A stretch of DNA of 64,000 bases from Candidatus Nomurabacteria bacterium (GCA_023898465.1 CP060223.1:416001-480000), one strand, 5' to 3'; positions 5,310 through 45,936 are shown, numbered from the stretch's first letter. A program made the numbers and translations. The notes: generated by a model not told the origin, from the sequence alone.

Positions 5310-5311
5310 TC

Positions 5312-11176: not shown

Positions 11177-11177
11177 T

Positions 11178-12227
11178 ATGCCACTACCTAATTTCTCAAA
11201 TGCCTTTGGTTTAGAAATACGTGACACGGAAATACGCGTGGCACAGATTCACCGTCATGGAAAAAAGCTCTCTCTTTCTTCTTATGGTTTTTCGCAAATA
11301 CCAAACGGCGCAATGGAGCGAGGAGAGATCCTTAAATCTGATCAAGTAAAGTTAGCTATCCTCAACGCGCTTAAGTCACCTGTTGGGAAAAATTTTAGCA
11401 GTCAGTATGTAGTATGCGCTATTCCTGAGCAGCACGTTTTTACCACAGTCATCACTCTGCCGGCAAAAAAAAGTATTGAGAAAGACGACGTACAAGCTGC
11501 TGCACTACAGCAAATCCCCTATCCATTAGAAGATATTCAACTTGACTGGACTTTGGTAGATAAAGACGCAAAAACAAATTATATCCTTGTAGGGGCTGCC
11601 CCAAAAAACATAATTGCTGCGTATACTCAGGTACTTCGATCGGCGAATCTTATTCCAGTCGCTCTAGAGCCTCAGTCATCATCCATAGCGCGCGCTCTAC
11701 TGACCTCACATGACGCACAAACCCCAACCATGGTGCTGCACTTTGGACAAAAGCTCCTTACTATCTTTATCGTAAATAAAAACGTAGTATATTTTTCATC
11801 CTCTACGCCTATTTTTTCAGGTGAATCGATTATCAGTCTACTCAGTAAAAAGCTTGATTTAAATGCTGATAAGGCACGGAAGGCTGCTCAGTTATTCGGA
11901 TTACAAGCCAAAGAAGGAAAAGGCGAGGTGCGACGCGCACTTCTTCCTGAAATAAGTGCCTTAATGGAACATATTGAACAAATAAAAGAGTACTCAAGTA
12001 GCCACTTACCCGCTCCGGTGCATAACATCAGCACCATGCTAGTAACCGGAGAAATGAGCTCACTGCCTGGCCTAGCTGAATACCTACAGGAAGAGCTGCG
12101 CATACCAATTCAGCCAGGCTTACCTGGTGAGCGATATCAGCTTGAGATACCACAGAAGGAGCTTACATCGCTTGATCTGCAGTCCTCTGCTACGGTCTTA
12201 GGATTAGCTTTGCACGAACTCGCATGA
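11178..12227 (+). CDS. pilM: type IV pilus assembly protein PilM (actin-like ATPase fold)
   Basis: 349 aa. The N-terminal block FGLEIRDTEIRVAQI is typical of PilM/FtsA-like proteins. It is followed by PilN/PilO-like genes. Confidence 0.8.
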   Translation: MPLPNFSNAFGLEIRDTEIRVAQIHRHGKKLSLSSYGFSQIPNGAMERGEILKSDQVKLAILNALKSPVGKNFSSQYVVCAIPEQHVFTTVITLPAKKSIEKDDVQAAALQQIPYPLEDIQLDWTLVDKDAKTNYILVGAAPKNIIAAYTQVLRSANLIPVALEPQSSSIARALLTSHDAQTPTMVLHFGQKLLTIFIVNKNVVYFSSSTPIFSGESIISLLSKKLDLNADKARKAAQLFGLQAKEGKGEVRRALLPEISALMEHIEQIKEYSSSHLPAPVHNISTMLVTGEMSSLPGLAEYLQEELRIPIQPGLPGERYQLEIPQKELTSLDLQSSATVLGLALHELA

Positions 12228-12784
12228 AATCACTTAACTTTCTATTTCAAGAAGATCGCCAGGCCCTCCAAAGAGCTTATCAAGAGTTGCGTTTTCAGCA
12301 CACGTCTCTGCTTATTGTATTAAGCGTTGGACTCATTTCCGGACTTGTTTGGGGTACCAACCAGCTCCTTCATGTACGCATTCAACAACTTGACGATGAA
12401 ATCCAATCCACCCAGCAAACCGAACTCGTGCAGCAAACTACTGCCGCTGAATCAAAGGTGCGTGAGTTTAATACTCTAGTAAAGTTTTTTAGTGAAGAGA
12501 CAGAACTCATCTTTCCCCTCAGTGATCGTGTTGCTGAAATTAGTAAGATAATTCCCACAGGAATAAAAGTAGATCAACTTAGCTTAAATATGAATGCAAA
12601 ACAGCTTACCTTAGCTGGCAGCGCAAGCAACCGTGATAGTTACCTTTCCCTACGTGATGCACTAGCAAACACTGGATGGTTTGAGAGCGTGGAATTACCA
12701 ATTACAGATCTACTTAGCCGGGAAAATATCCGCTTTACGCTGCAGACTGATTTAACCGATGAGTTTTTTAACATAAGCAAATGA
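12224..12784 (+). CDS. pilN: PilN-like pilus assembly protein (single TM plus coiled coil)
   Basis: 186 aa with one N-proximal TM (LLIVLSVGLISGLVWG) and a coiled-coil/periplasmic domain. It is in the operon position after pilM and overlaps it by 4 nt. Confidence 0.5.
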   Translation: MKSLNFLFQEDRQALQRAYQELRFQHTSLLIVLSVGLISGLVWGTNQLLHVRIQQLDDEIQSTQQTELVQQTTAAESKVREFNTLVKFFSEETELIFPLSDRVAEISKIIPTGIKVDQLSLNMNAKQLTLAGSASNRDSYLSLRDALANTGWFESVELPITDLLSRENIRFTLQTDLTDEFFNISK

Positions 12785-13332
12785 AACTAGCCGGACAAAA
12801 AACTCGAGTTTTCATTATAGTCGAGCTTGGTATTTCACTCGCCTTGCTGCTACTCATCATTTTACCAAGCTGGCAAAATATTGAAGGAAGTAAAAAAACA
12901 ATAACAGAACGTCGCGTCACTCAGGCTGAGACAAATCAACTCACCGAGCGATCCAATGATCTTATCCAACGTAGCGGAGAGCTAGAGGGCAAAATTAATA
13001 CTCTGCAGGATCGCCTTATCAGCCCTGCCACTGCACTTGATTTCCTCACCCAGCTAGAATCTACCGCCTCCGCTTCAAACGTTGTATTGGATGTAAAAAG
13101 CTTTGACCAGCCTAGCGCACAAAAAAAGGAAGGGGCGCTTAGCTTGTCAGCCATTGGCAGCTTCAGTGAGGTGCTTGGCTTTATTCATGAAATTGAACGC
13201 TTAAATTGGCTCCTTCAGATAGAGAACGTCAGCTTCTCCCCTAGTGCGGCTAATAACCGCAGCCAATCAGATACAGACACGGGTAACGCAGTGACGCTCA
13301 GTCTCGAGGCGTCTACCTTCTGGAAGGAATAA
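12781..13332 (+). CDS. pilO: PilO-like pilus assembly protein
   Basis: 183 aa. N-terminal TM, then a coiled-coil region (QLTERSNDLIQRSGELEGKINTLQDRL), then an alpha/beta domain. It overlaps pilN by 4 nt. Confidence 0.5.
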   Translation: MKLAGQKTRVFIIVELGISLALLLLIILPSWQNIEGSKKTITERRVTQAETNQLTERSNDLIQRSGELEGKINTLQDRLISPATALDFLTQLESTASASNVVLDVKSFDQPSAQKKEGALSLSAIGSFSEVLGFIHEIERLNWLLQIENVSFSPSAANNRSQSDTDTGNAVTLSLEASTFWKE

Positions 13333-22677: not shown

Positions 22678-22801
22678 ATGTACTTAGATTAGCCTGATTT
22701 TAGGGTAATTGGCAAGACCTGTTTCGTTGACATTACTCAAGCGCTTTTGTAAGGTTTCAACCTCGAGGCCATGTGCACATACTTAGCCCAGGAGAACTGA
22801 A

Positions 22802-23092
22802 ATGCCTGATTGCAATCTCAACGTCCACGGCATCCGAGTACCTGACGAGCGCTGGCGGAAAATGAAAGCAGTTCATGATTCCTGCGAAACTGCAGGTGTC
22901 CAGCTGCCAGAAGAAGTCGAGATCTACTTCGATGGACATGAACCTGATCCGAGCGGAATACTCACTGACCTGGCTGACCCCATCGTCACCAAGTGGGAGC
23001 GCGAGGAAGACGACGATCAGGAAGGTATCGAGATCGACCTGACTCAGCTTCCAGAGGGCGTGACCAAGCTTCGCGTCACCATCAGCTACTAG
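22802..23092 (+). CDS. small acidic hypothetical protein (high-G+C island 1)
   Basis: 96 aa, very D/E-rich. An RBS caggaga lies 6 nt before the ATG. G+C and codon choice (GAC/GAG/CTG/GGC) are unlike the backbone. Confidence 0.4.
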   Translation: MPDCNLNVHGIRVPDERWRKMKAVHDSCETAGVQLPEEVEIYFDGHEPDPSGILTDLADPIVTKWEREEDDDQEGIEIDLTQLPEGVTKLRVTISY

Positions 23093-23122
23093 CACCCGCC
23101 CTCGACACAGAGTCATAGCTCA

Positions 23123-23485
23123 TCAAGCTATGGCTCTTTTTCTTGCTCCTAAAAAGATAAAGACTACTCCAATAGCCAGCGGTACTAGCATGTGCACGGG
23201 AATCTCACCTTCAGCAATGATGCCAATAATGAGACCCACAAACACTGCACCGGCGCTGAGATATCCGCCAAGTCGTTCATATTTCCAACCCAGGGCAAGA
23301 CCAATAAACATTATGGGAAAAACGCTAAGCCACGTGTTATCCCAAAGCGTATAACTCGAGTCAATAAAGGGTAAGGGATTTCCATAGCCAAAGTAGAATG
23401 GAAGTCCAAATGAAATGACTAAAAGGCTGAGAATGCGCATAGTCCAGCGCAGAGCTCTATACTGAGAAGAAGAAAAATGTCTCAT
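23123..23485 (-). CDS. 4-TM small membrane protein, unknown
   Basis: Backbone-like G+C. The start is taken at the Met of MRHFSS, because a -10-like TATACT (within palindrome AGTATACT 23492-23499) lies 6 nt upstream, so the transcript may be leaderless. Confidence 0.4.
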   Translation of the reverse strand: MRHFSSSQYRALRWTMRILSLLVISFGLPFYFGYGNPLPFIDSSYTLWDNTWLSVFPIMFIGLALGWKYERLGGYLSAGAVFVGLIIGIIAEGEIPVHMLVPLAIGVVFIFLGARKRAIA

Positions 23486-23603
23486 GTCTGTAGTATACTC
23501 CCGCCTTCCTTGTTTAAACAAACAAGGCTTGCTTGATTTGCAATATGTTGCTAAGGTCTTTTGTCTAGCTCATTTGCACATTCACTGAACAAGGAGCACA
23601 AAG

Positions 23604-23972
23604 GTGAAGTCCAGGCAAAAAACGGGTCCGATTTCAAGATATCTTGCTTGGTGCACTTCACGAGAGGCCACTGAGCAAGAACGCCGAGACAGGCTAAAGC
23701 AGCGTCTTTCAGGGGCAATCCCACGCGGTACCTGCCAGTGGCTGCGCGAAGAATGCGACATACCGATCGATGGACTCTTCAAGAAAGAAAGCATCACGGT
23801 CCTAATTACTAGAAGAGGTCCTGGAGCAAAAGCTCTTGGTCTCTCGCCTGAACTCAAAGGGACTGATGAGCAACTCAGAGCTCTCCAGGCTGCTTGGCGA
23901 GGCGCAATCACAGTTACCTGGCAATGGACTGAGGATCGAAGCACTCTGCGTATTAGCTTCAAGCGGGCTTAA
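23604..23972 (+). CDS. small basic hypothetical protein (high-G+C island 1)
   Basis: 122 aa with a GTG start. An RBS AAGGAG lies 7 nt upstream. Arg-rich, no motif recognised. It is followed by the hairpin/T-tract at 24003-24038. Confidence 0.35.
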   Translation: MKSRQKTGPISRYLAWCTSREATEQERRDRLKQRLSGAIPRGTCQWLREECDIPIDGLFKKESITVLITRRGPGAKALGLSPELKGTDEQLRALQAAWRGAITVTWQWTEDRSTLRISFKRA

Positions 23973-24002
23973 TCCTCAATACTCACCACAACAAAGACCT
24001 GT

Positions 24003-24038
24003 TCGACGTTTGTTCGCAGGTCTTTCCTTATTGACAAA
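24003..24038 (+). terminator. putative rho-independent terminator
   Basis: Perfect 8-bp stem aagacctg/caggtctt with a 15-nt loop, followed by TTTCCTT. Confidence 0.35.
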
Positions 24039-24039
24039 A

Positions 24040-24068
24040 ATGAGGTTTTGGACTATATTACCTCGTTC
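24040..24068 (+). promoter_or_regulatory. near-consensus sigma70 promoter: -35 TTGACA (24040-24045), 17-nt spacer, -10 TATATT (24063-24068)
   Basis: It is followed by AGGAGG (24101-24106) and a GTG/ATG start of the first gene of the paralogous pair. Confidence 0.45.
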
Positions 24069-24114
24069 TTTACATCCGTCTAGTACCGTGCAGGAGGGCG
24101 AACAAGTGCCAGTA

Positions 24115-24447
24115 AAAAAGATGGTGAAGATTATGAACCACGTTGAAATCCTGAAAAACACTCCGCTCCTTCGGGAGTTCCGCTTGGCAACTGCTGAGGA
24201 TATCGCGCCAGGAGCAGAGCTGTTCGAGGCTGAGGTGGGCTTTGATCTCAGAATTGAACAACCACGTCGGATCCGTCTGGCCGACGAACCGATACAAGAA
24301 GCTTACGGAGAAGATCATGTGGTCTACTCCCAGGCCAATGGCCTGAAGGACCTTACGGTCACCGTACAACGCTTCCTGTCCACCGAAGCAGAACCTGAGA
24401 CCCTCTTCCCACACCGCTACACAATCCTCTACCTCGTCAAGATCTAG
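24115..24447 (+). CDS. hypothetical protein, paralog 1 of a tandem pair (island 1)
   Basis: About 110 aa. Start is GTG 24115 (RBS AGGAGG 8 nt upstream) or ATG 24130. It shares ILxxxPxLxxxRLxTxxDxxPGAxL at the N-terminus and EAExxxxxxTxLYLxK at the C-terminus with the next ORF. The long 5' extension in the ORF track lies upstream of the promoter and is rejected. Confidence 0.5.
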   Translation, partial: KKMVKIMNHVEILKNTPLLREFRLATAEDIAPGAELFEAEVGFDLRIEQPRRIRLADEPIQEAYGEDHVVYSQANGLKDLTVTVQRFLSTEAEPETLFPHRYTILYLVKI

Positions 24448-24477
24448 CGCTCACAGGGCTTCCACCAAGGAGGATTC

Positions 24478-24801
24478 ATGTCCACGATGATCAACCGTCA
24501 AGATATCCTGAACCGGGCACCGGATCTTCCGGGTCGCCGCTTGGTCACCCGAGACGAAGTGATCCCGGGCGCGAAGCTCGATATGGTTCATGTTGACCTG
24601 GACGGCAAGGCTCAGTGGCTTCAGCCGATCCAGATCGACGAAGAAGCCACCGGTGAGCGGGTAGGCACGACCTACGTGTTCTACCACTGCGACGGTCATC
24701 CCAGTCAGTGCTTCGTCCCCTTCGATGATTTCGTTGGTGTCGAGGTGGAAGCAGAGAGCTGCGGACCCTTCCTCACCACCCTCTACCTCGCGAAAAACTG
24801 A
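24478..24801 (+). CDS. hypothetical protein, paralog 2 of a tandem pair (island 1)
   Basis: 107 aa with a perfect AGGAGG 5 nt before the ATG. Conserved blocks are shared with the upstream ORF (MINRQDILNRAPDLPGRRLVTRDEVIPGAKL / ...TTLYLAKN). Confidence 0.55.
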   Translation: MSTMINRQDILNRAPDLPGRRLVTRDEVIPGAKLDMVHVDLDGKAQWLQPIQIDEEATGERVGTTYVFYHCDGHPSQCFVPFDDFVGVEVEAESCGPFLTTLYLAKN

Positions 24802-24860
24802 CCCCCCTCAAAGCCGCCAATATCACTTCATGTGTGAGGCGGCTTTTTCATTAAACAAAC

Positions 24861-24892
24861 GACAGGGCACAGAGGCCCTGTCTATCTGTTTT
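24861..24892. terminator. bidirectional rho-independent terminator between convergent paralog-2 and ahcY
   Basis: Perfect 8-bp stem gacagggc/gccctgtc with loop acagag, then TATCTGTTTT on the + strand and GTTTGTTT on the - strand. A second, weaker hairpin (aagccgcc/ggcggctt + TTTTT) lies at 24812-24848. Confidence 0.5.
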
Positions 24893-24959
24893 ACAAAGTT
24901 ATGCAAATTTAGATTACTGCTTCCGGTCGTAGTGCAGCTTCATTGCTACTCATAACTTC

Positions 24960-36688: not shown

Positions 36689-37819
36689 CCTAGTTGCGAA
36701 TAAACGCTACGAAGCTTCTGTCCGATTTCCTGCCAGTCATAGCGTTGACGGGCTAAGTTCTGACCAGCTTCACCTAGCTGACGCGCGTAATCATCATTGC
36801 TCAATATCGCTCGTATTGCGTCCTCAAGCGCGTGCGTATTTCCTGGAGGATATAAAATGCCACCTACCCCATTTTCAGTAACTTCGAGGGTGGGTGGCAA
36901 CTCGCTACTTACATAAGGCGTGCCAAGGGCCATTGCTTCAGCCAAGACAATCCCAAAGCCCTCAACTGAGGAAGGGAGACAGAGAATATGACTCTTTGCC
37001 ATTGTTTCTAAGACATCGACATGTTTTTCCACGAAGCCGGAAAAATGCACTCGATCCGAAACACCCAGCTGCTCAGTTAGGGCTTCTAACTTGGCTTGCT
37101 GTGGACCGCTACCGATAATTTTCACCTGCAGATTTGGCATATCATTCCGCAGCTCAGCTACTACTTCCAATAAATCAGGTATACGTTTGTAATTCACTAG
37201 GCGGCCAACAAAACAAATAGTTGGGTCATCATAGCGTTCAAGGTTTTTAGGCAGACGAGTGAAGTCAACTCCGTTTGGTATTACGGCAATACGCTTTGGA
37301 TCCATACCATGCCGCAATAGCTTCGCACGAGTAGCGGTACTCACTGCGATAACTTTATCCCAAAGGAATTTTAAAAAGCGGCGTTCTACAAATTCACCGA
37401 AGAGACTAGAAGAAAACCAAGGTTAGCCCGCCACTCACCTATCCACACATCATGATAGGTTGCTACCGCGCGAATTTTCTTTTTCTTGGCAATAGTGATA
37501 GCTGCTTGATAAAGCAGGAAATTTGTCCCCTCAACTACGTCAATATCTTTTTTAAGCGCAGTTGCAATCACATTACGCATAAATATGTAGCGCTTCAGTA
37601 AACCGCCTGATTGAGTGAAAGAACGCGAGGACCGCAACGAATAACCTCAATACCAGGTAGTGGTTCCTGAGTCAGGTGTCCTTCTTGTGCGGCAATGACA
37701 GTTACTTTATGCTCTTTTGCTAACTCTAGTGCCGAGTAATATGTGCGTGCTTCTACACCGCCCCGAAAATCAAGATCTGCTGTGTATGGGAAAAATTCTG
37801 CAAGAATGAGGATCTTCAT
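36685..37819 (-). pseudogene. GT4 glycosyltransferase disrupted by two or more frameshifts (three ORF fragments)
   Basis: The N-terminal fragment 37595-37819 (MKILILAEFFPYTADLDFRGGVEARTYY...), the middle 37386-37637 and the C-terminal 36685-37344 (...CLPSSVEGFGIVLAEAMALGTPYVSS) are consecutive GT4 segments in three different frames. The C-terminal frame continues upstream as ...GEFVERRFLKFLWDKVIAVSTATRAK without an ATG. Confidence 0.55.
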
Positions 37820-37820
37820 A

Positions 37821-38132
37821 TTATTCTTTTTTATCCGTTTCTTTACGTAGTGCTAACTCGCGGACAATCGTGGTTATCTCCTGTTCCAAATGTTCAATCT
37901 TCATCATCACTCGGAACAGCGCATACACTAAACCAATGACCGAGATGTAGAGAATAGCATCGACGCCTCGTCCAACGCCGAGGAATTTAGCAAGATACTC
38001 AGTTAATCGAGGTAAAAGGACTATAACACTGATGCCCAGCCAAATAAGAAGCCAAAAAAGAATTCTTTGGCAGTAATATCCTTTTTGCGTAACGATATGC
38101 AGTCCGTACAACCACGAAGAAGGCAAACACAA
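37821..38132 (-). CDS. small 3-TM membrane protein with C-terminal charged helix (DUF2304-like partner of polyprenyl-phosphate GT2 enzymes?)
   Basis: 103 aa. It lies immediately downstream of the GT2 (dolichol-P-sugar synthase-like) pseudogene. The family call is tentative. Confidence 0.35.
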   Translation of the reverse strand: MCLPSSWLYGLHIVTQKGYYCQRILFWLLIWLGISVIVLLPRLTEYLAKFLGVGRGVDAILYISVIGLVYALFRVMMKIEHLEQEITTIVRELALRKETDKKE

Positions 38133-38158
38133 TAACGAGAATCTGTATCAGCATAGTC

Positions 38159-38840
38159 TTATTTCAATAATCGAAGTAATAACAATCGAAAAAAAGTTCT
38201 TACACCCTCTCCAAAACTCTGTCCTTTTGACATTGAGTATTCAGTATAGATTGCAGCAATTGGCACTTCGCTTAGACGGAAAGCGTGCCGCTTCACCTCA
38301 TACATTATTTCCGTAGACACCTCCATGCGATTTGACTGCAGATGCAGGGTGCGAGCAGCCTGTCGAGTAAACTCCCGGAGGCCTGACTGACTATCACTCG
38401 TCTGTAATCCAAACATGAATAAGGTGATCCGATTTCCTATCGCGTTATACAGCCGACGACGCAAAGGCATCCTAGGCTGCGTCTTATCGCGGACAAGCAT
38501 ACGTGAGCCTACAACAACATCAGCTACACCTTTTTCAAGCGGCTCAATAATGCGTAGTATATCTTTTGCTTCATGCTGACCGTCAGCATCAAAGGTAACA
38601 ATGTATTCTGCGCCAGCTCGGATGGCAGCCTGAATGCCGGTAGCAAGCGCTCCACCAAGACCTCGATTAATGAGGTGGCGATACACCCGTGCACCTGCTG
38701 CTTGAGCTATCTGACCACTACCGTCACTAGAACCATCGTCAATAACAAAACATCCGGCGTGACTGCACGGACTGCGCGCACCACATCAGATATAGTCTTT
38801 GCTTCGTTAAATGCAGGAATAACAATTGCCACCTTCATGG
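38159..38840 (-). pseudogene. GT2 polyprenyl-phosphate sugar synthase (Dpm1/GtrB/ArnC-like), frameshifted near 38750
   Basis: A reverse-complement ATG at 38838-38840 gives MKVAIVIPAFNEAKTISDVVRAVRAV, then the frame breaks. A second frame continues AGCFVIDDGSSDGSGQIAQAAGARVYRHLINRGLGGALA..DADGQH into the 175-aa ORF 38159-38686. Confidence 0.55.
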
Positions 38841-38987
38841 CACAAATTACTCTACTAAAAAGCGGTCAAAAATGCAAGGGGTCACGCTATAAAAAATCCA
38901 AACTTAGCGTGCTGATTAATAAAAACAACGTGCCTTTGTGATCACGCCTATTGTGACTTGTCACTTTAGCCACTATGATGATACCGA

Positions 38988-40267
38988 ATGCCACTCCCAA
39001 ATCCGCAACTCCAAAACTTATATACTGACGCAAAAAAGGATTTTACCTTAGCCTTTCGCACTGGGATGCTGCACCTATTAAGCAGTTCCGGTATTGTCCA
39101 AATCTCTGGCTTTGTGGTTACACTTGTGCTTGTCCGCGTGCTCAGCACGGAATCGGTCGGGCATATTCGCCTCATTCATTCCGTACTGGACTTTCTCATC
39201 CTCTTAGGTGATTTTGGCTTAGCCATGGCGATGTTGAAATATATTGCCGAGCCAAATGACGAGGAGGAGAAAAAATCACTGCTTAGTCATGCCAGTTACG
39301 GAATTCTTTTCACTTCTTTGCTCACAGCCCTTCTGGCTTTTGGACTAAGCTTTATACCAAACTTAATTGGCGATGCGACAGCGCAAGCAGCGTTACGTTG
39401 GATGGTTTGGCTGATCCCCTTGCGACGCTTTTGGCATAGTTGTGCACTGGGAACATGGCCGAAAAAGAATCAAGCAAAAAGCATGGTATGAATTAGCCCA
39501 GCGGCTTGTACTTGTTGTCCTTACCTTAGGTGGACTTCTTTACGCTGGATATTCAGGATACCTCTACGGATTCGCTATTGGTATGGCACTTGTGACGCTT
39601 ATTTTACTGAGCCGACTACCCCAAGGCTGGTGGAGCCATCGTATGTAAAAGAAAAAATGCGCAAGCTTTTTGCTTTTGGCTGGTACGCCATGCTGGCCAA
39701 TCAATTCCAAGTTGTTGTAGTAACTGCTGATGTCGTCATGATTAGTTTACTCACTCGCGATGCGGTTGATGTGGGAATCTACAGTGTGATGGCGCTTTCA
39801 TCCGAGGACTTTGGATACTTCCAAATGCCATCATGCAAACTGCGCTTCCATATCTCTCGGAACAATCTGCTGATACGAATCAATTACAACAGAGCATCAA
39901 ACGGATCAGCACAAAATGGCCATGCTGATGCTGCCACTCTGCGCCTTACTTTTCTCCTGGCTCCCACGCTTATCCCTTACTCTTTGGAAGAGACTACGAG
40001 AGTGGAATAAAGGTCTTTCAGGTTCTGATCCTCTCACTCTTTTTCAGCTCATTGGCCATGGTCAACTATACCGCGCTTTTAAGTTTAGGTAAGGTAAAAT
40101 TTAACTTTTATACAGTACTTATTGAAGCCCTAGTCAACATTGTCTTGAATTACTGGCTGATTTCGCAACTTGGGATGATCGGTGCTGCCTGGGCAACAGT
40201 GGTCACCTTTGCACTACGGTATGGGATAAACTCATTTTTCCTCCGACGACAGCTTAAAACTGCTTGA
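38988..40267 (+). pseudogene. Wzx-like oligosaccharide flippase (MOP superfamily) broken into four ORF fragments
   Basis: The ORFs 38988-39491, 39442-39648, 39630-40010 and 40052-40267 are sequential segments of one polytopic MOP/Wzx-type protein in different frames. They need at least three frameshifts to join. Confidence 0.5.
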
Positions 40268-40366
40268 CAAAATAGAGGGATTTGCTAATTTCTGCGTGAC
40301 GGTGGCGACCTGACAAAGGGGCCGCTGTATTCATGTTGAGTAAAGTACTCACATGAGGCACGCACG

Positions 40367-40396
40367 TTGACAATCTAAACTAACGAAGCGTAAGTT
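40367..40396 (+). promoter_or_regulatory. sigma70-like promoter of island 2: -35 TTGACA (40367-40372), 18-nt spacer, -10 TAAGTT (40391-40396)
   Basis: It is followed by RBS GGGAGG (40405-40410) and ATG 40415. Confidence 0.4.
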
Positions 40397-40414
40397 GCGC
40401 GTTTGGGAGGATGC

Positions 40415-40960
40415 ATGAAAACGCTCAGTTTTTTGCTGATGTTGCTTAGCTTTGGCTTGGCAACACCGAGCTTGGCACAGCTCACGCTGCGCCATGGGAC
40501 ACTCATGCCAGGTAATGGTATGAGTGAATCAGCGCAATACCGTCTGGTGAGCGTCATCGGATGGGCTGACCTTAGCCAACATGCCGATACTACTTGGGTA
40601 CTGATCGAAGGGCCGTGGATTCCTCGGAACCATGACACCTCGGCAGTGGGAGGACCTGAAACTCAGGCACACCGCCTAAGCCTCTCGAACATTCAACCCA
40701 ATCCGATTGGTCAATCCGGTCTGATTCACTTCAATGTCCCTGGGATCAATGGAGAGAAATCGCCCCTTACCATGGCAATCTATGACGTCACCGGGCGTCG
40801 AGTACGCACACTGGTCTCAGGCGAGATGCAATCCGGTCCACAGGTTGCTATCTGGGATGGACGAGACGACAGTGGAAAGGCGCTGGCGAATGGCATCTAT
40901 TGGTGCCAAATTCAGTGCAAAAACAACAGGGCAACCAAAAAGCTGGCGGTTATCCGCTAA
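40415..40960 (+). CDS. secreted small protein consisting of signal peptide, short linker and a T9SS-type/FlgD-Ig-like C-terminal sorting domain (island 2)
   Basis: A signal peptide MKTLSFLLMLLSFGLATPSLA. The C-terminal about 90 aa (LSNIQPNPIGQSGLIHFNVPG...LTMAIYDVTGRRVRTLVSGEMQSGPQVAIWDGRDDSGKALANGIYWCQIQCKNNRATKKLAVIR) follows the por-secretion CTD / FlgD_ig pattern (NPF..T.I.F.L......V.L.IYD..GR.VRTL......G.H...WDG.D..G..V.SGVY.Y.L..G....TKKM.L.K). High G+C. Confidence 0.6.
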   Translation: MKTLSFLLMLLSFGLATPSLAQLTLRHGTLMPGNGMSESAQYRLVSVIGWADLSQHADTTWVLIEGPWIPRNHDTSAVGGPETQAHRLSLSNIQPNPIGQSGLIHFNVPGINGEKSPLTMAIYDVTGRRVRTLVSGEMQSGPQVAIWDGRDDSGKALANGIYWCQIQCKNNRATKKLAVIR

Positions 40961-40978
40961 GTAGAAGGAGATGAGATC

Positions 40979-42502
40979 ATGTTGAAGTTCCAGAGTCTCT
41001 GTATTTTGGTGGCGCTTTGTTGTGCCACGCTCGTCTTTGCTTCTGTGCCAAACCTGCTCACCTACCAGGGCTACTTGGAAGATGGTGGACAGGCAGCCAA
41101 CGGCAGCTACAACGTCACCTTCCTGCTCTACGATCAGGCAAGTGGCGGTACCAGCCTCTGGGAAGAAGTACAAACCGGTCTCGCGGTCCAGGACGGACTC
41201 ATGCAGTCATACCTCGGCCGGATCACGCCGCTTCCCAGCAACCTCGATGAGATCGAAACCCTCTATCTCAGCGTCGTTGTGCAGGGTGACACTCTGCAAT
41301 CACGCACCGAGCTCGCTTCTGTCCCCTACGCCTTCCGCGCCAAGCTATCTGAACACGCAGTCTATGCTGATTCGGCCGGAAATGGCGGAGATAGTGGTAG
41401 TGGATTCTGGGCAGCGAACGGCAACGATATCCATAACACCAATTCTGGGTTTGTGGGGATCGGGACGGAGAATCCAAACGAGCCCCTACATGTTGAAGGA
41501 CAAGGCATAGATTGGGCTGCCAGATTCACAAACAGTGATGGAAGCAGCAGCTCAGACGTGCGCTTGGCCTACAGAACTGGCGCTGGCATCTACATGAACA
41601 CCACTGGAACTACTAGTGGGTACTTCATGAACTTGAAGCATGAAGATCTCACAAAGGTCTATCTCACGAAGTCAGGCTACCTTGGGCTTGGTACGGATGG
41701 TCCAATTTCACAGCTCCACGTGGTGAACCCGGTCAACGCGGGGGCTGGAAACATCTTCAACATCGACCGAACGAACGACGTCACAAAGCAAACCTACATG
41801 GGCTTCCGTACGCACACGCTGCAGGACGCCTTCATAGGTGTGCCGGCAAACACGACCAACACGCTCACCTTTGGGTATGCCGGAAGCGCCGAGCTTATGC
41901 GTTACAACGCAAACGGGCTCGGTATTCGCACCACCAATCCGCAATTCACACTCGATGTGAACGGGAATACCAATTCAAGTCAGTACTACCTGGCCGGGCA
42001 CCAGATCGCCTACACTACTGGCGGCGGATCTCTCTTTCGTCTCAAGGACCCAAGCGGTGCAGACCGTGTTGAGTTCCAGGGGAACGGAGGCGATCTGCTC
42101 TTGGTGGGACCTGTCCGTATCAACGGCGACCTCTGCGTCACTGGTCAGAAAAACCGTATTGTGGAAACACCTTACGGCACTCTGGCTTTGAATGCTGAGG
42201 AATCGGCCGAAGCTTGGTTCTCTGCCAGCGGCGAAAGTCAGCTGGAAAACGGCCGAGCCCAAGTCGAGCTGTCTGAACGCTTCCTCGCGACCGTGGTCGT
42301 TTCTGATGAGCATCCTATGCAAGTCAACGCGACCTTCTATGGAGCGCACGGCGGCGGATGGTACGTGGAGCGTGGGCTGAACAGCTTCACTCTCGTCGAC
42401 CCCAGCGGGAGTAATGCACCGTTCACTTGGACGGTCAAAGCTCGCCAAAAAGGTTACGAAGACGTGAATCTCCGCGTTGTCGCGCCAACAGATGGGAGGT
42501 GA
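40979..42502 (+). CDS. secreted tail-fibre-like repeat protein (peptidase S74 / endosialidase-chaperone-type GIGT...LHV repeats) (island 2)
   Basis: A signal peptide is present. The N-terminal LTYQGYLEDGGQAANGSYNVTFLLYD..SGGTSLWEE block matches a phage-fibre-like motif. Three repeats of the G-[FYL]-[VLG]-G-[IL]-[GR]-T-x-x-P-x-x-x-L-[HD]-V motif occur (NSGFVGIGTENPNEPLHV; SGYLGLGTDGPISQLHV; NGLGIRTTNPQFTLDV). Confidence 0.55.
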   Translation: MLKFQSLCILVALCCATLVFASVPNLLTYQGYLEDGGQAANGSYNVTFLLYDQASGGTSLWEEVQTGLAVQDGLMQSYLGRITPLPSNLDEIETLYLSVVVQGDTLQSRTELASVPYAFRAKLSEHAVYADSAGNGGDSGSGFWAANGNDIHNTNSGFVGIGTENPNEPLHVEGQGIDWAARFTNSDGSSSSDVRLAYRTGAGIYMNTTGTTSGYFMNLKHEDLTKVYLTKSGYLGLGTDGPISQLHVVNPVNAGAGNIFNIDRTNDVTKQTYMGFRTHTLQDAFIGVPANTTNTLTFGYAGSAELMRYNANGLGIRTTNPQFTLDVNGNTNSSQYYLAGHQIAYTTGGGSLFRLKDPSGADRVEFQGNGGDLLLVGPVRINGDLCVTGQKNRIVETPYGTLALNAEESAEAWFSASGESQLENGRAQVELSERFLATVVVSDEHPMQVNATFYGAHGGGWYVERGLNSFTLVDPSGSNAPFTWTVKARQKGYEDVNLRVVAPTDGR

Positions 42503-42505
42503 GGG

Positions 42506-44284
42506 ATGAGATGGATTCTCTCGGTCCTACTCCTGGCTCTTGCGAGTAGTGCCTTTGCCGTACAACCAAATCTTCAGCTTCCCTTTGCTGAAGGGACCGT
42601 TCACAAATGTACGCAAGGTGCCAATGGCGAGTACTCACATCAGTACACTTCAACACGTTACGACATCGATCTAGACACGATCAACAATGGCGATGAAACG
42701 TTGTACGCCCCAGTATCCGGAACCGTCTATCTGCATGATGAAGGTGAATCCGGATTCGGAAAACACGTAAACATCGACGTTGGAGACAACACTTTTGTTC
42801 TCCTTGGGCATTGCAAGAGCTTTCTTGTTTCTGATGGACAGCAGATAACAACAGGGATGCCTGTTGCGCTTGAAGGCTGTACAGGAAATTGTTACGGTGA
42901 TCATGTACACTTTGGTCTGCACACTGGAAACCCTCAGATAGGCGCTTCAAGTAGCACATCAATTGTTGCCGAACACATCTGGGCTAGGGATGTGACCGCG
43001 GGTGGAGAATTTCGATTCTTCCGAAGCGATGAATTCATAGGCGATTTGACTAGTGGCCACAACTACGAGACTGGCTATTTAGGCACACCCTACCTCTGTT
43101 CTCCTGCTGGTCAAGATCCACCCGCTGCCCCGCCATTCTGGACCAAGCCTGGCGACATCAAATCATACTTGGCGAGATTCAGAAATACGGGAACGGCAAC
43201 GTGGATTGATAGCGGAGGCGTTGGTACGAATAACTACGTTGAACTACGATCGGTGTTTCAGAACGGCACACCCAAAAACTGTTGGCTTGAGCCAGTAGAT
43301 TGGATTGGGTGCCCTGCATCCTGCAACACTCAACGAGTAACCTCGTTTGACGAAGGGACAGTCGCTCCTGGTCAAACTGCAACATTCACCTTCCAGGCAC
43401 GAACACCAAATGTTCCAACTGACCTTGACGGTGAAGTAGTGTACTTCCGCCCCTTCCACGGAGCAGACATCGGAATCGACGGATGGGGGGAGATGAACTT
43501 CCTTATCTATGTCGACGCCGACGCGCCGCAGGTCCCGCCGAACTTGAGCGTGAACCCGTCAGACTGCACGAGCACCAACTCGTTCTTCTTTGACTGGGAT
43601 GCTTCGAGCGACGTGGGTAGTGGACTGGATCTCTACGAGTGGCAAATCAACGGATCTACACCGAACTCCACGACTAGTACTTCGGTACAAGTGAATGGGA
43701 GTCAAAGCGTTCACCCGGGCACCAACGTCTTCTACGTCAGAGCCTTGGATAAGGTCGGAAACGTGAGTGGAATGGCCACGGTGGAATTCTGCTTCGAAAC
43801 CGACTGCAACCTCAGCTTCAACCGAGACGACGACGGCAATAGTGTGCCTGACGGATGGACGGCTGACCCTCATGGAGGTTCAAGCTATAGCTGGCCGCCT
43901 GGAGGCATTGGAAGCAACTCACACTACGTACGTATTGTGAACGCTGATGGAGATGATTGGATGATCTATACTCGCACCAACTGCGATCAGATCACGCCAG
44001 GACAACTCTACCGAATCGGCTTCTGGTACAACACCACCTCCACGGCTCCGTTCGAGTGGGCACTGTTCAAGAGTAGTGTTTCAACTGGTCAACGAAGTCT
44101 GAACGCCCTCGTGAGCAACCCAACCGCAGACGGGCAGTGGCATCAATTCCAAAGTGAACCCTTCACAATCAACTCCGGCGACCTCAGCACCTACCCGAAA
44201 TTCGGGGTAAAGGTACCGCCGGGATCTGTCGGAACCTTCAACTTCGACGAGGTCTTCTTCGTTGAAACTGAGCTGTGTCAATAG
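42506..44284 (+). CDS. secreted M23-family metallopeptidase with Fn3/Ig-like and CBM-like (jelly-roll) C-terminal domains (island 2)
   Basis: A signal peptide MRWILSVLLLALASSAFA. M23/LytM motifs are H-x3-D (HQYTSTRYDID) and HxH (GDHVHFGLH) around LYAPVSGTV / VALEGCTGNCYGDHVHFGLH. An Fn3-like block follows (PNLSVNPSDCTSTNSFFFDWDASSD...YEWQINGS...VFYVRALDKVGNVSG), and the C-terminal about 170 aa has a CBM4/9-like pattern. Confidence 0.6.
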   Translation: MRWILSVLLLALASSAFAVQPNLQLPFAEGTVHKCTQGANGEYSHQYTSTRYDIDLDTINNGDETLYAPVSGTVYLHDEGESGFGKHVNIDVGDNTFVLLGHCKSFLVSDGQQITTGMPVALEGCTGNCYGDHVHFGLHTGNPQIGASSSTSIVAEHIWARDVTAGGEFRFFRSDEFIGDLTSGHNYETGYLGTPYLCSPAGQDPPAAPPFWTKPGDIKSYLARFRNTGTATWIDSGGVGTNNYVELRSVFQNGTPKNCWLEPVDWIGCPASCNTQRVTSFDEGTVAPGQTATFTFQARTPNVPTDLDGEVVYFRPFHGADIGIDGWGEMNFLIYVDADAPQVPPNLSVNPSDCTSTNSFFFDWDASSDVGSGLDLYEWQINGSTPNSTTSTSVQVNGSQSVHPGTNVFYVRALDKVGNVSGMATVEFCFETDCNLSFNRDDDGNSVPDGWTADPHGGSSYSWPPGGIGSNSHYVRIVNADGDDWMIYTRTNCDQITPGQLYRIGFWYNTTSTAPFEWALFKSSVSTGQRSLNALVSNPTADGQWHQFQSEPFTINSGDLSTYPKFGVKVPPGSVGTFNFDEVFFVETELCQ

Positions 44285-44320
44285 CTTGGAGGGGCTATTC
44301 CAGCATACATCGCACTTTCA

Positions 44321-44357
44321 CGCGCCTTCAGGCCAGCAACTTGGAGGCGCGTTTTTC
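44321..44357 (+). terminator. putative rho-independent terminator ending island 2
   Basis: Stem cgcgcct/aggcgcg (7 bp) with a 17-nt loop, followed by TTTTTC. Confidence 0.35.
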
Positions 44358-44424: not shown

Positions 44425-45936
44425 ATGTCAGAAAAACAAGAGAAGGCCAGTCGCTACCTCATTTCTATAGTAATTGGCTTTTTTATTGTATTTGGATTGG
44501 GTTTGCTAAACAAAAACCTTGCGTTTTTTGGTCAAAATCTTAGTTTTTCCCTTGATTTTCCTGCAAATGATAAGGTGCTCAGAGCTCTTCCAGCCATCAA
44601 TGAAACTACAGAAATTGGCGAGAACCCTGCAAACGGGAAGCAGTACGCGATTCAACGTCATACCATAACGACGCCCGAGACCAATATTTGGCTAAAAATA
44701 CCAGAAACACTGCAGTTAAGCGAAAAAAATCATCTCAGCGTTTCAACTGAATTTGATCCCAAACACCTCGATAGTTTAGAGCTTTCACTCGTCCACCCCA
44801 GTGGAATTAGCTATGACCTAGGGCCAATATACTCCGCCCAGCTCGAAGCTCTAGAGTGGAGCTCAATCACCCAGGACGGCGTTACTCTGTGGCAACGAAA
44901 CCCAAGCTACGCATCCATACAGGATTTCTACAAAAACCCACCGAAATCTGATGCAGAAACGCCTGTAATTGCCACTTTTCATGCCGCTCTCAATCCAGTG
45001 CTCCAGAGCGAATTTCTCGCTAATCTTCCTGAAAAAAAGCAATTAGAAAGTTCCCTACCCTATCTCGAGGGACCTTATACAACCTATACCCTGCTATTGG
45101 AAAGCGGCTCTCTTCATATTCACCTAGATGTACAGGAGCTTAATTTTTACGAAGGACCAGATCCGACCGAAATAAACGTTTTTGATCAATCTGGTGAGCT
45201 AATATATGTCACCACGCTTCCAGATGATGGCGTAGTAAGCGCCTCTAAAGTTCGAACCCCACTTCGTGCTATAGATTTTACCCTCGAGGGGCTTAATCCT
45301 GGAATGTATCGAGTTGAGGTTGATAATCCAGATATTCAGTCAAAACTAAGCACAAATCAACAATATGTTGTTTTAGCAAGCTCCCCGTTGCTTGTTGATA
45401 ACGTGTATAACAGCAGCGCAAATCCTCTAACTCTATACACAAATTCTCAAAATATTGATTTTCCTGCCTGGCATATTGACGCCAGCGCACAAAATATCAG
45501 TTTAGATGGTCACCAGATAACACTCGCTTCTGACCGACAAGTTGGCAGCTCAGTGCACTACAGCTTCCCTAACCTCGCTACAGCAAAAAATCCACACAGT
45601 ATTCAATTAGGTACCAATCATGCACTTATTGAAATAGATAAAAGCGCTGTTATTGCTTTTGATGCATTTGCTTATTTTAACCCTTTTACTATCCCAACTC
45701 GTCGTCTCACTGCCGATACTACCAAAGATACTTCAATAGAATACGTCTTAGCACGTTACGAAAAACAAAATCCGGTGAATGGAAGATACTTGCTGAATCG
45801 CGATTTCTACTTTGATAAAAGCTTCCTCAACGAAGACAATGGCCTGCAAATACGCTATAGCGCTGATACTCGCCTGGGATCCCCTCAATATCGCCTGCAA
45901 AAAGTTGACGTCTCAATCACTCGCTCTACTGAATAA
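44425..45936 (+). CDS. membrane-anchored hypothetical protein with large extracytoplasmic domain
   Basis: 503 aa with an N-terminal TM (YLISIVIGFFIVFGLGLL), then an Asn/Ser/Thr-rich soluble region. Backbone-like low G+C. Confidence 0.5.
   Translation: MSEKQEKASRYLISIVIGFFIVFGLGLLNKNLAFFGQNLSFSLDFPANDKVLRALPAINETTEIGENPANGKQYAIQRHTITTPETNIWLKIPETLQLSEKNHLSVSTEFDPKHLDSLELSLVHPSGISYDLGPIYSAQLEALEWSSITQDGVTLWQRNPSYASIQDFYKNPPKSDAETPVIATFHAALNPVLQSEFLANLPEKKQLESSLPYLEGPYTTYTLLLESGSLHIHLDVQELNFYEGPDPTEINVFDQSGELIYVTTLPDDGVVSASKVRTPLRAIDFTLEGLNPGMYRVEVDNPDIQSKLSTNQQYVVLASSPLLVDNVYNSSANPLTLYTNSQNIDFPAWHIDASAQNISLDGHQITLASDRQVGSSVHYSFPNLATAKNPHSIQLGTNHALIEIDKSAVIAFDAFAYFNPFTIPTRRLTADTTKDTSIEYVLARYEKQNPVNGRYLLNRDFYFDKSFLNEDNGLQIRYSADTRLGSPQYRLQKVDVSITRSTE

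What the first reader, a model, noticed from the sequence alone, without database searches (positions are those of the whole stretch)
40415..40960. Stand-alone T9SS/FlgD-Ig-type C-terminal domain protein without visible T9SS machinery
The protein is little more than a signal peptide plus an about 90-aa CTD whose conserved positions match por-secretion sorting domains. Such CTDs normally tag cargo for type IX secretion in Bacteroidota/FCB-group bacteria. Finding it inside a foreign-looking island next to pilus and cell-wall genes is unexpected. It could be a remnant of a larger cargo gene or a decoy/anchor domain.
Basis: partly seen in the sequence, partly recalled or inferred. Interest (0 to 1): 0.5.

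Follow-up and report, generated by a model that had tools for sequence, protein, structure and literature searches.

The report
Fibre-partner secretion-tag protein in CPR bacterium
A small secreted protein carrying a Bacteroidota-type (type IX) secretion tag sits in a tiny single-membrane "Nomurabacteria" genome because it arrived by gene transfer as part of a three-gene fibre-plus-cell-wall-enzyme cassette, and it belongs to a previously undescribed family that always accompanies such fibres.

Summary
The ORF (40415-40960, 181 aa) is real and carries a signal peptide and a type A T9SS C-terminal domain (CTD). It passes TIGR04183 and PF13860 but falls just below the PF18962 cut-off. It is not a remnant. 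Dozens of about 180-aa full-length homologues exist with the same plan: signal peptide, a roughly 50-aa N-domain with no known family, a linker and the CTD. Named relatives are Eisenbacteria and Krumholzibacteria.

In 9 of 10 independent loci the gene directly abuts a tail-fibre-like gene whose N-domain resembles the Bdellovibrio MAT fibre N-domain. Only 1 of 80 control loci shows this. A wall hydrolase with a conserved tail and swappable head often follows.

In the window the three genes form a roughly 4-kb operon. Their GC3 is 0.56-0.63 against 0.376 ± 0.035 for host genes. The operon sits in a glycosylation locus of a 1.08-Mb Candidatus Nomurabacteria genome (CPR, monoderm), and three assemblies agree on the junctions. 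The M23 head alone has host-like composition and different relatives, so that gene is a mosaic.

Best reading (inferred): in the donors the CTD exports and tethers the small protein, whose N-domain docks the fibre. In this host only Sec export is possible. Absence of T9SS from the whole genome could not be tested.

The parts
40300..44355 (.). Horizontally acquired island of about 4 kb, forming one operon of three genes. It lies between an intact host flippase gene and a host 503-aa membrane protein gene.
   Evidence: GC in 200-nt windows rises at ~40300 and falls at ~44300. GC3 of the island genes lies 5-7 sd above 49 host genes. The junctions match (99.8% identity across 15-17 kb) in two short-read contigs, L001 and L002. 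No flanking repeats or integrase were found.
40405..40411 (+). Shine-Dalgarno-like GGGAGGA upstream of the ATG at 40415
   Evidence: Read directly from the sequence.
40415..40480 (+). Signal peptide of the small protein (residues 1-22, ...SLA|Q)
   Evidence: Sequence inspection. All homologues have an equivalent hydrophobic N-terminus. AF2 models a helix at residues 3-14.
40481..40624 (+). Family-specific N-domain (residues 23-70, four short beta-strands, conserved G49 and G66 in the G-F/P-W motif). Proposed fibre-docking element.
   Evidence: Conserved across alignments A1 and A2. No Pfam, NCBIfam, PHROG or PDB match. pLDDT is 43-54 on its own. An HMM of this domain finds it only in genes next to fibre genes.
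40625..40696 (+). Linker (residues 71-94). This is the place where a T9SS sortase would cut in a donor organism.
   Evidence: Low pLDDT and variable sequence. The location of cleavage sites in linkers follows PMC11969387. No cleavage was tested.
40697..40960 (+). Type A T9SS-style C-terminal domain / FlgD-Ig-like beta-sandwich (residues 95-181) plus stop codon
   Evidence: Passes TIGR04183 and PF13860; PF18962 is just below its cut-off. Motif B is AIYDVTGRRV, motif D is NGIYWCQI, motif E is TKKLAVIR. pLDDT exceeds 90. The closest solved structures are FlgD Ig domains and the CTDs of PorU and PorZ.
40979..42502 (+). Tail-fibre-like secreted protein (507 aa). The N-domain at residues ~23-145 (41045-41413) resembles the Bdellovibrio MAT fibre N-domain. 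It has no CTD.
   Evidence: PHROG tail and tail-fibre families, E 1.5e-10 to 5e-6. NF053851 Bdello_MAT_N scores 19.4 bits here and is matched by 10 of 11 partner fibres, best E 9.4e-9. It is homologous to L003_665, L003_849, L006_530 and others.
42506..43120 (+). M23 peptidase head (signal peptide plus residues ~23-205) of the third gene. Its composition is host-like.
   Evidence: PF01551 scores 50.8 bits. It is 42-54% identical to the M23 heads of P0268-P0278 (E 1e-36 to 1e-50) but scores only E 0.25 against the head of the cassette homologue in L003. GC3 is 0.434, z 1.7.
43121..44284 (+). Conserved cassette-specific tail of the third gene (residues 206-592), with weak Ig-like and CBM4_9-like matches
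   Evidence: 39-40% identical over ~390 aa to the tails of L003_M23_581 and of L090_653, which carries a NAGPA head instead. NF047446 scores 30.1 bits and PF02018 17.6 bits, both below their cut-offs. GC3 is 0.606.
44320..44352 (+). Intrinsic-terminator-like hairpin (13-bp stem, T tail) that closes the operon

Best explanation
The gene encodes a small Sec-exported protein built of three parts: a roughly 50-residue N-domain with no known family, a flexible linker, and a type A T9SS C-terminal domain. It belongs to an undescribed family of about 180-aa proteins from FCB-group candidate phyla such as Eisenbacteria and Krumholzibacteria.

Shown:
- The family is the obligate gene neighbour of tail-fibre-like adhesins that have a MAT-like N-domain.
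- A secreted cell-wall hydrolase often follows. Its tail is conserved and its catalytic head is exchangeable.
- The three-gene cassette entered this Candidatus Nomurabacteria (CPR) genome by horizontal transfer.
- Only the M23 head has host-like composition, and it has different relatives from the rest of the gene.

Inferred mechanism:
- In diderm donors the CTD takes the small protein through the T9SS.
- It then either stays bound at the outer membrane or is exchanged for a lipopolysaccharide anchor.
- This leaves the N-domain as a surface peg that docks the conserved N-domain of the fibre. The fibre itself has only a Sec signal.
- In the monoderm CPR host there should be no T9SS. The protein would be exported by Sec alone and the CTD would act, at most, as an Ig-like structural or binding domain.
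For: Family:
- A phmmer scan of 1.84 billion representatives found about 20 full-length hits of 169-192 aa at 29-34% identity over residues ~5-180 (alignment).
- A profile search added dozens more. The named ones are Eisenbacteria, Glassbacteria and Calditrichia, and the only Nomurabacteria entry is the query itself.
- All 43 members of alignment A2 match TIGR04183 at E ≤ 1e-3.

Pairing:
- A fibre N-domain gene lies directly adjacent in 9 of 10 independent loci that hold a family member. In 80 control loci chosen only for a CTD, it occurs once, and that fibre is also followed by a CTD protein.
- Fibres and hydrolases lack a CTD.
- The N-domain is poorly ordered alone (pLDDT 43-54) while the CTD exceeds 90. 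This fits folding on a partner.
- For Bdellovibrio MAT fibres, Caulton et al. state that the conserved N-domain presumably binds a surface element that is still unidentified (PMC10769870).

Transfer:
- GC3 z-scores are 5.4, 7.4 and 6.7 for the small gene, the fibre gene and the hydrolase tail.
- Three assemblies agree on the junctions.
- The host is identified by USN53948.1 on a 1,082,586-bp contig and by lineage.
- CTD relatives in species genomes are overwhelmingly FCB-group and none is Patescibacteria.

Mosaic hydrolase.

Host envelope: CPR are described as monoderm in bioRxiv 10.1101/2021.05.31.446380 and 10.64898/2026.03.03.709456.
Against: - No physical interaction was tested or modelled. 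The docking role rests on gene adjacency and on both N-domains being conserved.
- One family member, the Eisenbacteria locus L005, has no adjacent fibre.
- How a trimeric fibre without a CTD would cross a donor's outer membrane is unexplained.
- Absence of T9SS from the whole 1.08-Mb genome was not checked.
- Nothing shows that the operon is expressed in the CPR host.
- The taxon of the M23-head relatives (L091-L093) is unknown, so 'host-derived head' is supported by composition only.
- PF18962 falls short of its gathering score.
Confidence: 0.55

Rival explanations
1. The cassette is a recent, functionally inert passenger in the CPR genome. It was transferred from an FCB-group neighbour or host, has not yet decayed, and its CTD is meaningless here.
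For: - The composition is not ameliorated.
- No close relative exists anywhere; the best is 34% identity.
- The host lineage is described as lacking an outer membrane.
Against: - All three ORFs are intact, with ribosome-binding sites and a terminator.
- The small protein is identical in two samples, and the hydrolase differs from them at only one residue.
- The M23 head appears to have been replaced by one of host-like composition, which suggests remodelling under selection.
- The target is no more divergent at conserved columns than other members in the unbiased set.
Confidence: 0.22
2. The small protein is a fibre assembly chaperone or a tip-bound adhesin, analogous to the phage tail-fibre assembly proteins encoded next to fibre genes. 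It would not be a cell-surface anchor.
For: - The size (~180 aa) and the strict adjacency to a tail-fibre-like gene fit.
- The fibre matches PHROG tail-fibre families.
- In two loci the small gene follows the fibre gene, as phage Tfa genes do.
Against: - The small protein has no PHROG match.
- It carries its own signal peptide and a surface-sorting CTD.
- What is conserved across partner fibres is the N-domain (the cell-proximal end in MAT fibres), while the tips vary.
- Neither the small family nor the fibre N-domain was found on 51 viral contigs that carry CTD domains.
Confidence: 0.13
3. The island is a prophage or tailocin remnant made of a tail fibre, a tail lysin and an accessory protein.
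For: The fibre has PHROG tail hits and the M23 domain has many phage hits.
Against: - There is no integrase, no flanking repeats and no other phage gene.
- The fibre and the M23 protein have no relatives in IMG/VR.
- All three proteins have Sec signal peptides, which is unusual for virion proteins.
- The homologous cassettes sit among chromosomal genes.
Confidence: 0.04
4. It is a truncated remnant of a large T9SS cargo gene, or an assembly or binning chimera.
For: The protein is short and the composition is foreign.
Against: - Full-length homologues of the same size and architecture exist.
- Two short-read contigs span both junctions.
Confidence: 0.02
5. In the CPR host the Ig-like domain has been recruited into a native Sec-only, donor-strand-exchange surface filament of the recently described Pam pilus type.
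For: - Six of 43 family members weakly match NF058579 CPR_pilus_PamT, best E 1.7e-4.
- Pam pilins are Sec-exported Ig-like proteins that assemble without an outer membrane.
Against: - The target itself has no PamT match at E ≤ 1.
- None of the 42 window ORFs scanned with Pfam has a match suggesting a chaperone-usher-like component; Pam-specific models were not searched for them.
- The family is FCB-group, not CPR.
Confidence: 0.04

Closest known systems
Type A T9SS cargo C-terminal domains (TIGR04183 / PF18962), for example P. gingivalis RgpB, PorU and PorZ
   Same: It sits at the extreme C-terminus and follows a Sec signal peptide. It has motifs B, D and E, a beta-sandwich of about 85 aa, and sequence and fold matches to the PorU and PorZ CTDs.
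   Different: The host is a monoderm CPR bacterium, and none of the 42 window ORFs scanned with Pfam matched a T9SS component family. The 'cargo' is only a ~50-aa domain. The Pfam model falls 2.5 bits short of its cut-off.
Small CTD proteins PorA (246 aa, P. gingivalis) and Fjoh_0547 (112 aa, F. johnsoniae)
   Same: These are precedents for very small proteins of the form signal peptide + small N-domain + CTD. PorA exists both LPS-bound and with its CTD retained on the surface (PMC7712824).
   Different: PorA has a FimH-like lectin N-domain and acts in PorXY-SigP signalling. No sequence similarity to its N-domain was seen in the PDB search. The genomic context also differs: fibre and hydrolase here.
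Bdellovibrio MAT (mosaic adhesive trimer) fibre proteins (this concerns the partner gene)
   Same: The fibre has a signal peptide followed by a conserved beta-rich N-domain of ~120-130 aa. It has variable tail-fibre-like tips. In tandem copies (L003, L090) the N-terminal ~130 residues are identical or nearly so while the tips differ.
   Different: The match to NF053851 is far below its cut-off (19 against 60 bits). The organisms are FCB-group or CPR, not Bdellovibrio. No small CTD partner is described for MAT fibres.
Flagellar hook cap protein FlgD
   Same: It shares the Ig-like domain: PF13860 scores 39.8 bits, and PDB entries 7eh9 and 7bhq match at E 2e-8.
   Different: There is no match outside the Ig-like domain, that is, nothing corresponding to the rest of FlgD. 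None of the 42 window ORFs scanned with Pfam matched a flagellar family. The domain is terminal and carries the T9SS motifs.
Phage tail-fibre assembly proteins (Tfa, gp38-like)
   Same: They are small proteins encoded next to a fibre gene.
   Different: There is no PHROG match. The protein has a signal peptide and a sorting domain, and what it covaries with is the fibre's N-terminal end.

Membership tests
T9SS type A sorting domain protein (TIGR04183 / PF18962) | Score at or above the curated cut-off of the domain model | tested here: met
   TIGR04183 scores 26.9 bits against a cut-off of 23. PF18962 scores 24.5 against 27, just short. All 43 family members match TIGR04183 at E ≤ 1e-3.
T9SS type A sorting domain protein (TIGR04183 / PF18962) | Domain at the extreme C-terminus, with motif B (Y..G), motif D (GxY + hydrophobic) and motif E (basic residue near the end) | tested here: met
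   The motifs are AIYDVTGRRV, NGIYWCQI and TKKLAVIR-end. Motif definitions come from PMC11969387.
T9SS type A sorting domain protein (TIGR04183 / PF18962) | N-terminal Sec signal peptide | tested here: met
   The N-terminus has a charged n-region, a hydrophobic h-region and SLA|Q. This is by inspection only; SignalP was not available.
T9SS type A sorting domain protein (TIGR04183 / PF18962) | Beta-sandwich CTD fold | tested here: met
   AF2 gives pLDDT above 90 with six or seven strands. Foldseek matches the PorU (6za2) and PorZ (5m11) CTDs.
T9SS type A sorting domain protein (TIGR04183 / PF18962) | T9SS machinery (PorK/L/M/N, SprA/Sov, PorV, PorU) encoded in the same genome | not testable with these tools
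   None of the 42 ORFs of the 64-kb window scanned with Pfam matched a T9SS component family; seven large ORFs at 46.2-51.0 and 53.8-55.7 kb were not scanned here. CPR are reported to be monoderm.
T9SS type A sorting domain protein (TIGR04183 / PF18962) | CTD-dependent secretion, cleavage or LPS attachment | not testable with these tools
   Needs experiment.
T9SS type B sorting domain (TIGR04131 / CHU_C) | Score at or above the cut-off | tested here: not met
   TIGR04131 scores 13.3 against 35 and PF13585 scores 17.4 against 27.
FlgD hook cap protein | Full-length FlgD equivalog score, and a flagellar gene context | tested here: not met
   The FlgD equivalogs score 14-33 bits against cut-offs of 221-383, and only over the Ig domain. 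None of the 42 window ORFs scanned with Pfam matched a flagellar family.
Bdellovibrio MAT fibre family (partner gene 40979-42502) | NF053851 N-domain at or above the cut-off | tested here: inconclusive
   It scores 19.4 bits against a cut-off of 60. Even so, NF053851 is the only family hit, and 10 of 11 partner fibres match it (best E 9.4e-9).
Phage tail-fibre assembly protein | Match to a PHROG or Pfam Tfa family | tested here: not met
   The small protein has no PHROG family at E ≤ 0.01.
CPR Pam pilus tip pilin PamT (NF058579) | Match to the model, and a pam operon context | tested here: not met
   The target has no match at E ≤ 1. Only 6 of 43 relatives match, and weakly.
Peptidase M23 (third gene 42506-44284) | PF01551 at or above the gathering score | tested here: met
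   50.8 bits against 28.7.

The most novel reading that the evidence does not exclude
The small family is the missing cell-surface anchor for MAT-type adhesive fibres. It would be a minimal docking peptide that the T9SS exports and tethers to the outer surface, and onto which signal-peptide-only fibres (and their hydrolase companions) are mounted. A CPR episymbiont has captured this cassette from an FCB-group bacterium, fitted it with a different M23 head, and uses it without any T9SS to attach to or breach host cells.
Probability: 0.2. Interest if true: 0.7.

Novelty: new variant of a known kind. Interest (0 to 1): 0.5.

Why it matters
- It defines an unannotated protein family and a conserved three-gene surface cassette in poorly known FCB-group candidate phyla: a small CTD protein, a MAT-like fibre, and a hydrolase with a swappable head.
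- It offers a concrete, testable candidate for how fibres that have only a signal peptide are held on the cell surface. Caulton et al. left that question open for Bdellovibrio MAT fibres.
- It documents transfer of a diderm-specific secretion tag into a monoderm CPR genome, with signs of later remodelling. This bears on how CPR bacteria acquire host-interaction tools.
- It shows that the automatic label "T9SS type A sorting domain-containing protein" cannot be read as evidence that a T9SS is present.

Tried and rejected
1. **Single-sequence word-index search.** It found only the protein itself. The exhaustive phmmer scan was needed to find relatives.
2. **Genome scan with the family alignment.** It keyed on the CTD motif NxPNPFNPxT and returned only CTD-level matches. 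These were useful for taxonomy and as controls, not for finding family members.
3. **Decay of the CTD in the T9SS-less host.**
   - The target deviates at 7 of 24 conserved columns in alignment A2. A2 is biased by the word index, however.
   - In the unbiased A1 the target is not an outlier. The idea was rejected.
4. **N-domain similarity of the 626-aa CTD protein next to the Calditrichia fibre (L047).** It is visible by eye only; the HMM score is -1 bit. It was not claimed.
5. **Empty-site search.** A degenerate flippase C-terminal pattern found no hits in JGI metagenomes.
6. **Fibre alignment A3.** It was too diverse for the search for related loci.
7. **Phage origin.**
   - The fibre and the M23 protein have no IMG/VR relatives.
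   - No family or fibre N-domain occurs on 51 viral contigs that carry a CTD.
8. **Taxon of the M23-head relatives (L091-L093).** Cluster names and NCBIfam gave nothing.
10. **Flanking repeats or att sites.** Only short chance-level matches were found.
11. **Rfam.** Nothing was found in the window.

Full report
**1. The observation**

ORF 40415-40960 (+) is real. It starts at an ATG that lies 4 nt after GGGAGGA and encodes 181 aa. Exactly the same protein is called on a 1,082,586-bp NCBI contig, where it is named [quoted passage not shown]. It is also called on two Logan short-read contigs, L001 and L002.

- The N-terminus (MKTLSFLLMLLSFGLATPSLA|Q) looks like a Sec signal peptide by inspection.
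- Pfam gives FlgD_ig PF13860 at 39.8 bits (GA 27), Por_Secre_tail PF18962 at 24.5 (GA 27) and CHU_C at 17.4.
- NCBIfam gives TIGR04183 (type A) at 26.9 bits (cut-off 23) and TIGR04131 (type B) at 13.3 (cut-off 35). It also matches the C-terminal ends of the PorU and PorZ models.
- The three motifs described for T9SS CTDs (PMC11969387) are present: AIYDVTGRRV (B), NGIYWCQI (D) and TKKLAVIR-end (E).
- AlphaFold2 (AF2), run with a 43-sequence alignment, models residues ~100-180 as a beta-sandwich at pLDDT above 90.
- The nearest solved structures, by profile and by fold, are FlgD Ig domains and the CTDs of PorU (6za2) and PorZ (5m11).

The CTD call is therefore sound, and it is type A.

**2. Host and island**

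The window carries housekeeping genes (CTP synthase, ribosomal protein L9, MurA-like EPSP_synthase-fold enzyme, AdoHcyase). It also carries a type IV pilus cluster at 3.6-13.3 kb and a long glycosylation locus. None of the 42 ORFs scanned with Pfam matched a T9SS component family; seven large ORFs of the glycosylation locus (46.2-51.0 and 53.8-55.7 kb) were not scanned here, although the source's own Pfam list for five of them shows only sugar-modifying families.

The AdoHcyase is USN53948.1 of Candidatus Nomurabacteria. That taxon belongs to the Patescibacteria/Parcubacteria group. CPR bacteria are described as monoderm (bioRxiv 10.1101/2021.05.31.446380; 10.64898/2026.03.03.709456).

Forty-nine host genes in the window have GC3 of 0.376 ± 0.035, with a maximum of 0.463. 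The island genes stand well above this:

| Gene or part | GC3 |
|---|---|
| Small gene | 0.560 |
| Next gene (fibre) | 0.630 |
| Tail of the third gene | 0.606 |

- GC steps up at ~40300 and down at ~44300.
- A strong terminator-like hairpin follows the third gene at 44320-44352.
- No integrase or meaningful flanking repeats were found.
- Both short-read contigs span both junctions at 99.8% identity, so this is not an assembly chimera.

**3. Not a remnant: a family**

The word-index search found only the protein itself. An exhaustive phmmer scan of 1.84 billion representatives gave 93,013 hits, nearly all through the CTD. Among them were about 20 full-length hits of 169-192 aa at 29-34% identity over residues ~5-180.

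Their alignment shows a shared plan:
- a signal peptide;
- an N-domain of ~50 aa, with invariant G49 and G66 in a G-F-W-x-P motif;
- a variable linker;
- the CTD.

A profile search added dozens more. The named ones are Eisenbacteria, Glassbacteria and Calditrichia. Neighbouring genes place L006 in Krumholzibacteria and L094 in Eisenbacteria.

The N-domain matches nothing in Pfam, NCBIfam, PHROGs or the PDB. On its own it is modelled at pLDDT 43-54.

A scan of GTDB species genomes with the family's CTD motif returned 80 loci. They are overwhelmingly FCB-group: Krumholzibacteria, Cloacimonadota, Zixibacteria, Calditrichia, KSB1, Eisenbacteria, Ignavibacteriota, Gemmatimonadota, Marinimicrobia, Fibrobacteraceae, Latescibacterota and Bacteroidota. 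None is Patescibacteria.

**4. A conserved cassette**

In contig L003 the gene order is small (184 aa), 665 aa, M23 (581 aa), small (182 aa), 849 aa. Gene for gene these are homologous to the window:

| Window gene | L003 counterpart | Identity |
|---|---|---|
| Small protein | Small (184 aa) | 33% |
| 507-aa protein | 665 aa | ~30% at both ends |
| M23 protein | 581 aa | 33% over full length, E 6e-82 |

L090 repeats the pattern. There the enzyme has a NAGPA head on the same tail.

I built an HMM of the N-domain of the middle gene (…YQG.L…W.E…SVPYA, ~120 aa).
- It finds a directly adjacent gene in 9 of 10 independent loci that hold a family member: the window, L003/4, L006, L007, L008, L090, L094, L095 and L096. 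The exception is L005.
- It finds one in only 1 of 80 CTD-only control loci. That one, L047, is itself followed by a 626-aa CTD protein.
- The middle genes match PHROG tail and tail-fibre families.
- Ten of 11 match NF053851, the N-domain of Bdellovibrio MAT fibres, and no other NCBIfam family.
- They have signal peptides but no CTD.
- In tandem copies the first ~130 residues are identical (the two L003 copies) or nearly so (the two L090 copies) while the rest differs. MAT fibres show the same pattern.

**5. A mosaic third gene**

- The M23 head (residues 1-205) is 42-54% identical (E 1e-36 to 1e-50) to the heads of P0268-P0278. Three of these, where context was read, sit beside PrgI, TraC-like and VirB4 genes.
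- Against the M23 head of the L003 cassette homologue, the window head scores only E 0.25.
- The tail (residues 206-592) is 39-40% identical to the L003 and L090 tails and unrelated to P0268-P0278.
- The head alone has host-like GC3, 0.434 (z 1.7).

The same tail therefore carries three different heads. In this genome the head was probably replaced. The taxon of the head's relatives could not be established.

**6. Mechanism**

*Shown:* the architecture, family membership, strict pairing with a MAT-like fibre gene, a foreign origin for the small gene, the fibre gene and the hydrolase tail, and a mosaic hydrolase.

*Inferred:*
- In diderm donors the CTD takes the small protein through the T9SS.
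- It then stays bound at the surface or is swapped for a lipopolysaccharide anchor. This is the established fate of type A cargo (PMC11969387; PMC7712824).
- The N-domain then serves as the docking site for the fibre's conserved N-domain.

Caulton et al. note that the MAT N-domain "would presumably tightly bind" a surface element that remains unidentified (PMC10769870). This family is a candidate for that role in FCB-group bacteria.

In the monoderm Nomurabacteria host only Sec export is available. The CTD can then be no more than an Ig-like module. Whether the cassette works there is unknown, although the intact ORFs and the remodelled head argue against a dead passenger.

**7. Rivals**

- An inert recent passenger.
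- A Tfa-like assembly chaperone.
- A prophage remnant. The fibre and M23 protein have no IMG/VR relatives, and no family or fibre N-domain occurs on 51 CTD-bearing viral contigs.
- A truncated cargo gene or an assembly chimera, both contradicted by the evidence above.
- Recruitment into a Pam-like CPR pilus. Only 6 of 43 relatives weakly match PamT, and the target does not.

**8. Comparison and verdict**

By sequence, motifs and fold the protein is a type A CTD protein. The defining functional context, a T9SS in the same genome, could not be tested and is unlikely given the taxonomy.

- The closest precedents for very small CTD proteins are PorA (246 aa) and Fjoh_0547 (112 aa). Their N-domains and contexts differ.
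- I rate the finding a new variant of a known kind. It has a new N-domain family, a new conserved cassette, and an unusual monoderm host reached by horizontal transfer.
- Interest is moderate at 0.5. It would be higher if the anchor hypothesis holds.

Noticed in passing
window 37408-39973: The window has 12 single-base deletions, 11 of them in homopolymer runs of two or more, relative to both short-read contigs (L001, L002). They break the GT4, DUF2304, GT2 and flippase genes into false fragments, whereas the short-read versions are intact (378, 111, 226 and 428 aa). This looks like an unpolished long-read stretch, not pseudogenes.
   Followed up: yes
window 37282-37381: Fourteen substitutions fall within 100 bp of a GT4 gene relative to both short-read contigs, while the surrounding 17 kb is otherwise almost identical. 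This could be a recombination tract between paralogous GT4 genes, or strain variation.
   Followed up: partly
window 42506-44284: The third island gene is a mosaic. Its M23 head has host-like GC3 and is related to M23 heads that sit beside PrgI, TraC-like and VirB4 genes (L091-L093). Its tail is shared with cassette homologues that carry a different M23 head (L003) or a NAGPA head (L090).
   Followed up: yes
window 43887: There is a single A/C difference from both short-read contigs inside the hydrolase tail. It is non-synonymous (Tyr in the window, Ser in L001/L002).
   Followed up: no
L003 4210-6207 and 8605-11154; L090 212-1732 and 4342-6708: Tandem cassette copies encode fibres whose first ~130 residues are identical (L003) or nearly identical (L090), while the remainder differs in length and sequence. 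This suggests tip swapping on a constant base, as described for Bdellovibrio MAT fibres.
   Followed up: partly
L047 1201-6354 and 6372-8252 (Calditrichia MAG): A 1717-aa MAT-like fibre with long repeats and a coiled-coil end is directly followed by a 626-aa protein that ends in the same CTD. Its N-terminus resembles the small-family N-domain by eye, but not significantly.
   Followed up: partly
L097-L147 (IMG/VR contigs): Fifty-one viral contigs encode this type of CTD, and in about half of them it lies at the end of an open frame of 1,000-1,800 aa. Whether these are phage proteins or flanking host genes was not examined.
   Followed up: no
alignment A2 (family members): Six of 43 family members weakly match NF058579, the tip pilin PamT of the newly described CPR Pam pilus (best E 1.7e-4). 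This is probably shared Ig-like fold.
   Followed up: partly
window 22750-24955: This 2.2-kb stretch has raised GC (up to 0.52) and holds only short ORFs: a DUF7670 membrane protein and unknown proteins of 203, 107 and 96 aa. It has no Rfam match. It may be a second small foreign insert.
   Followed up: partly
window 3582-13332: A type IV pilus cluster encodes PilB- and PilC-like proteins, two N-methyl-motif pilins (one of 735 aa with a CarboxypepD_reg domain), a 619-aa unknown protein and PilM/N/O. It is typical of CPR genomes and lies 27 kb from the finding.
   Followed up: no
window 44425-45936: A host-composition gene just downstream of the island encodes a 503-aa protein with an N-terminal membrane helix. 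It has no match in Pfam or PHROGs.
   Followed up: no
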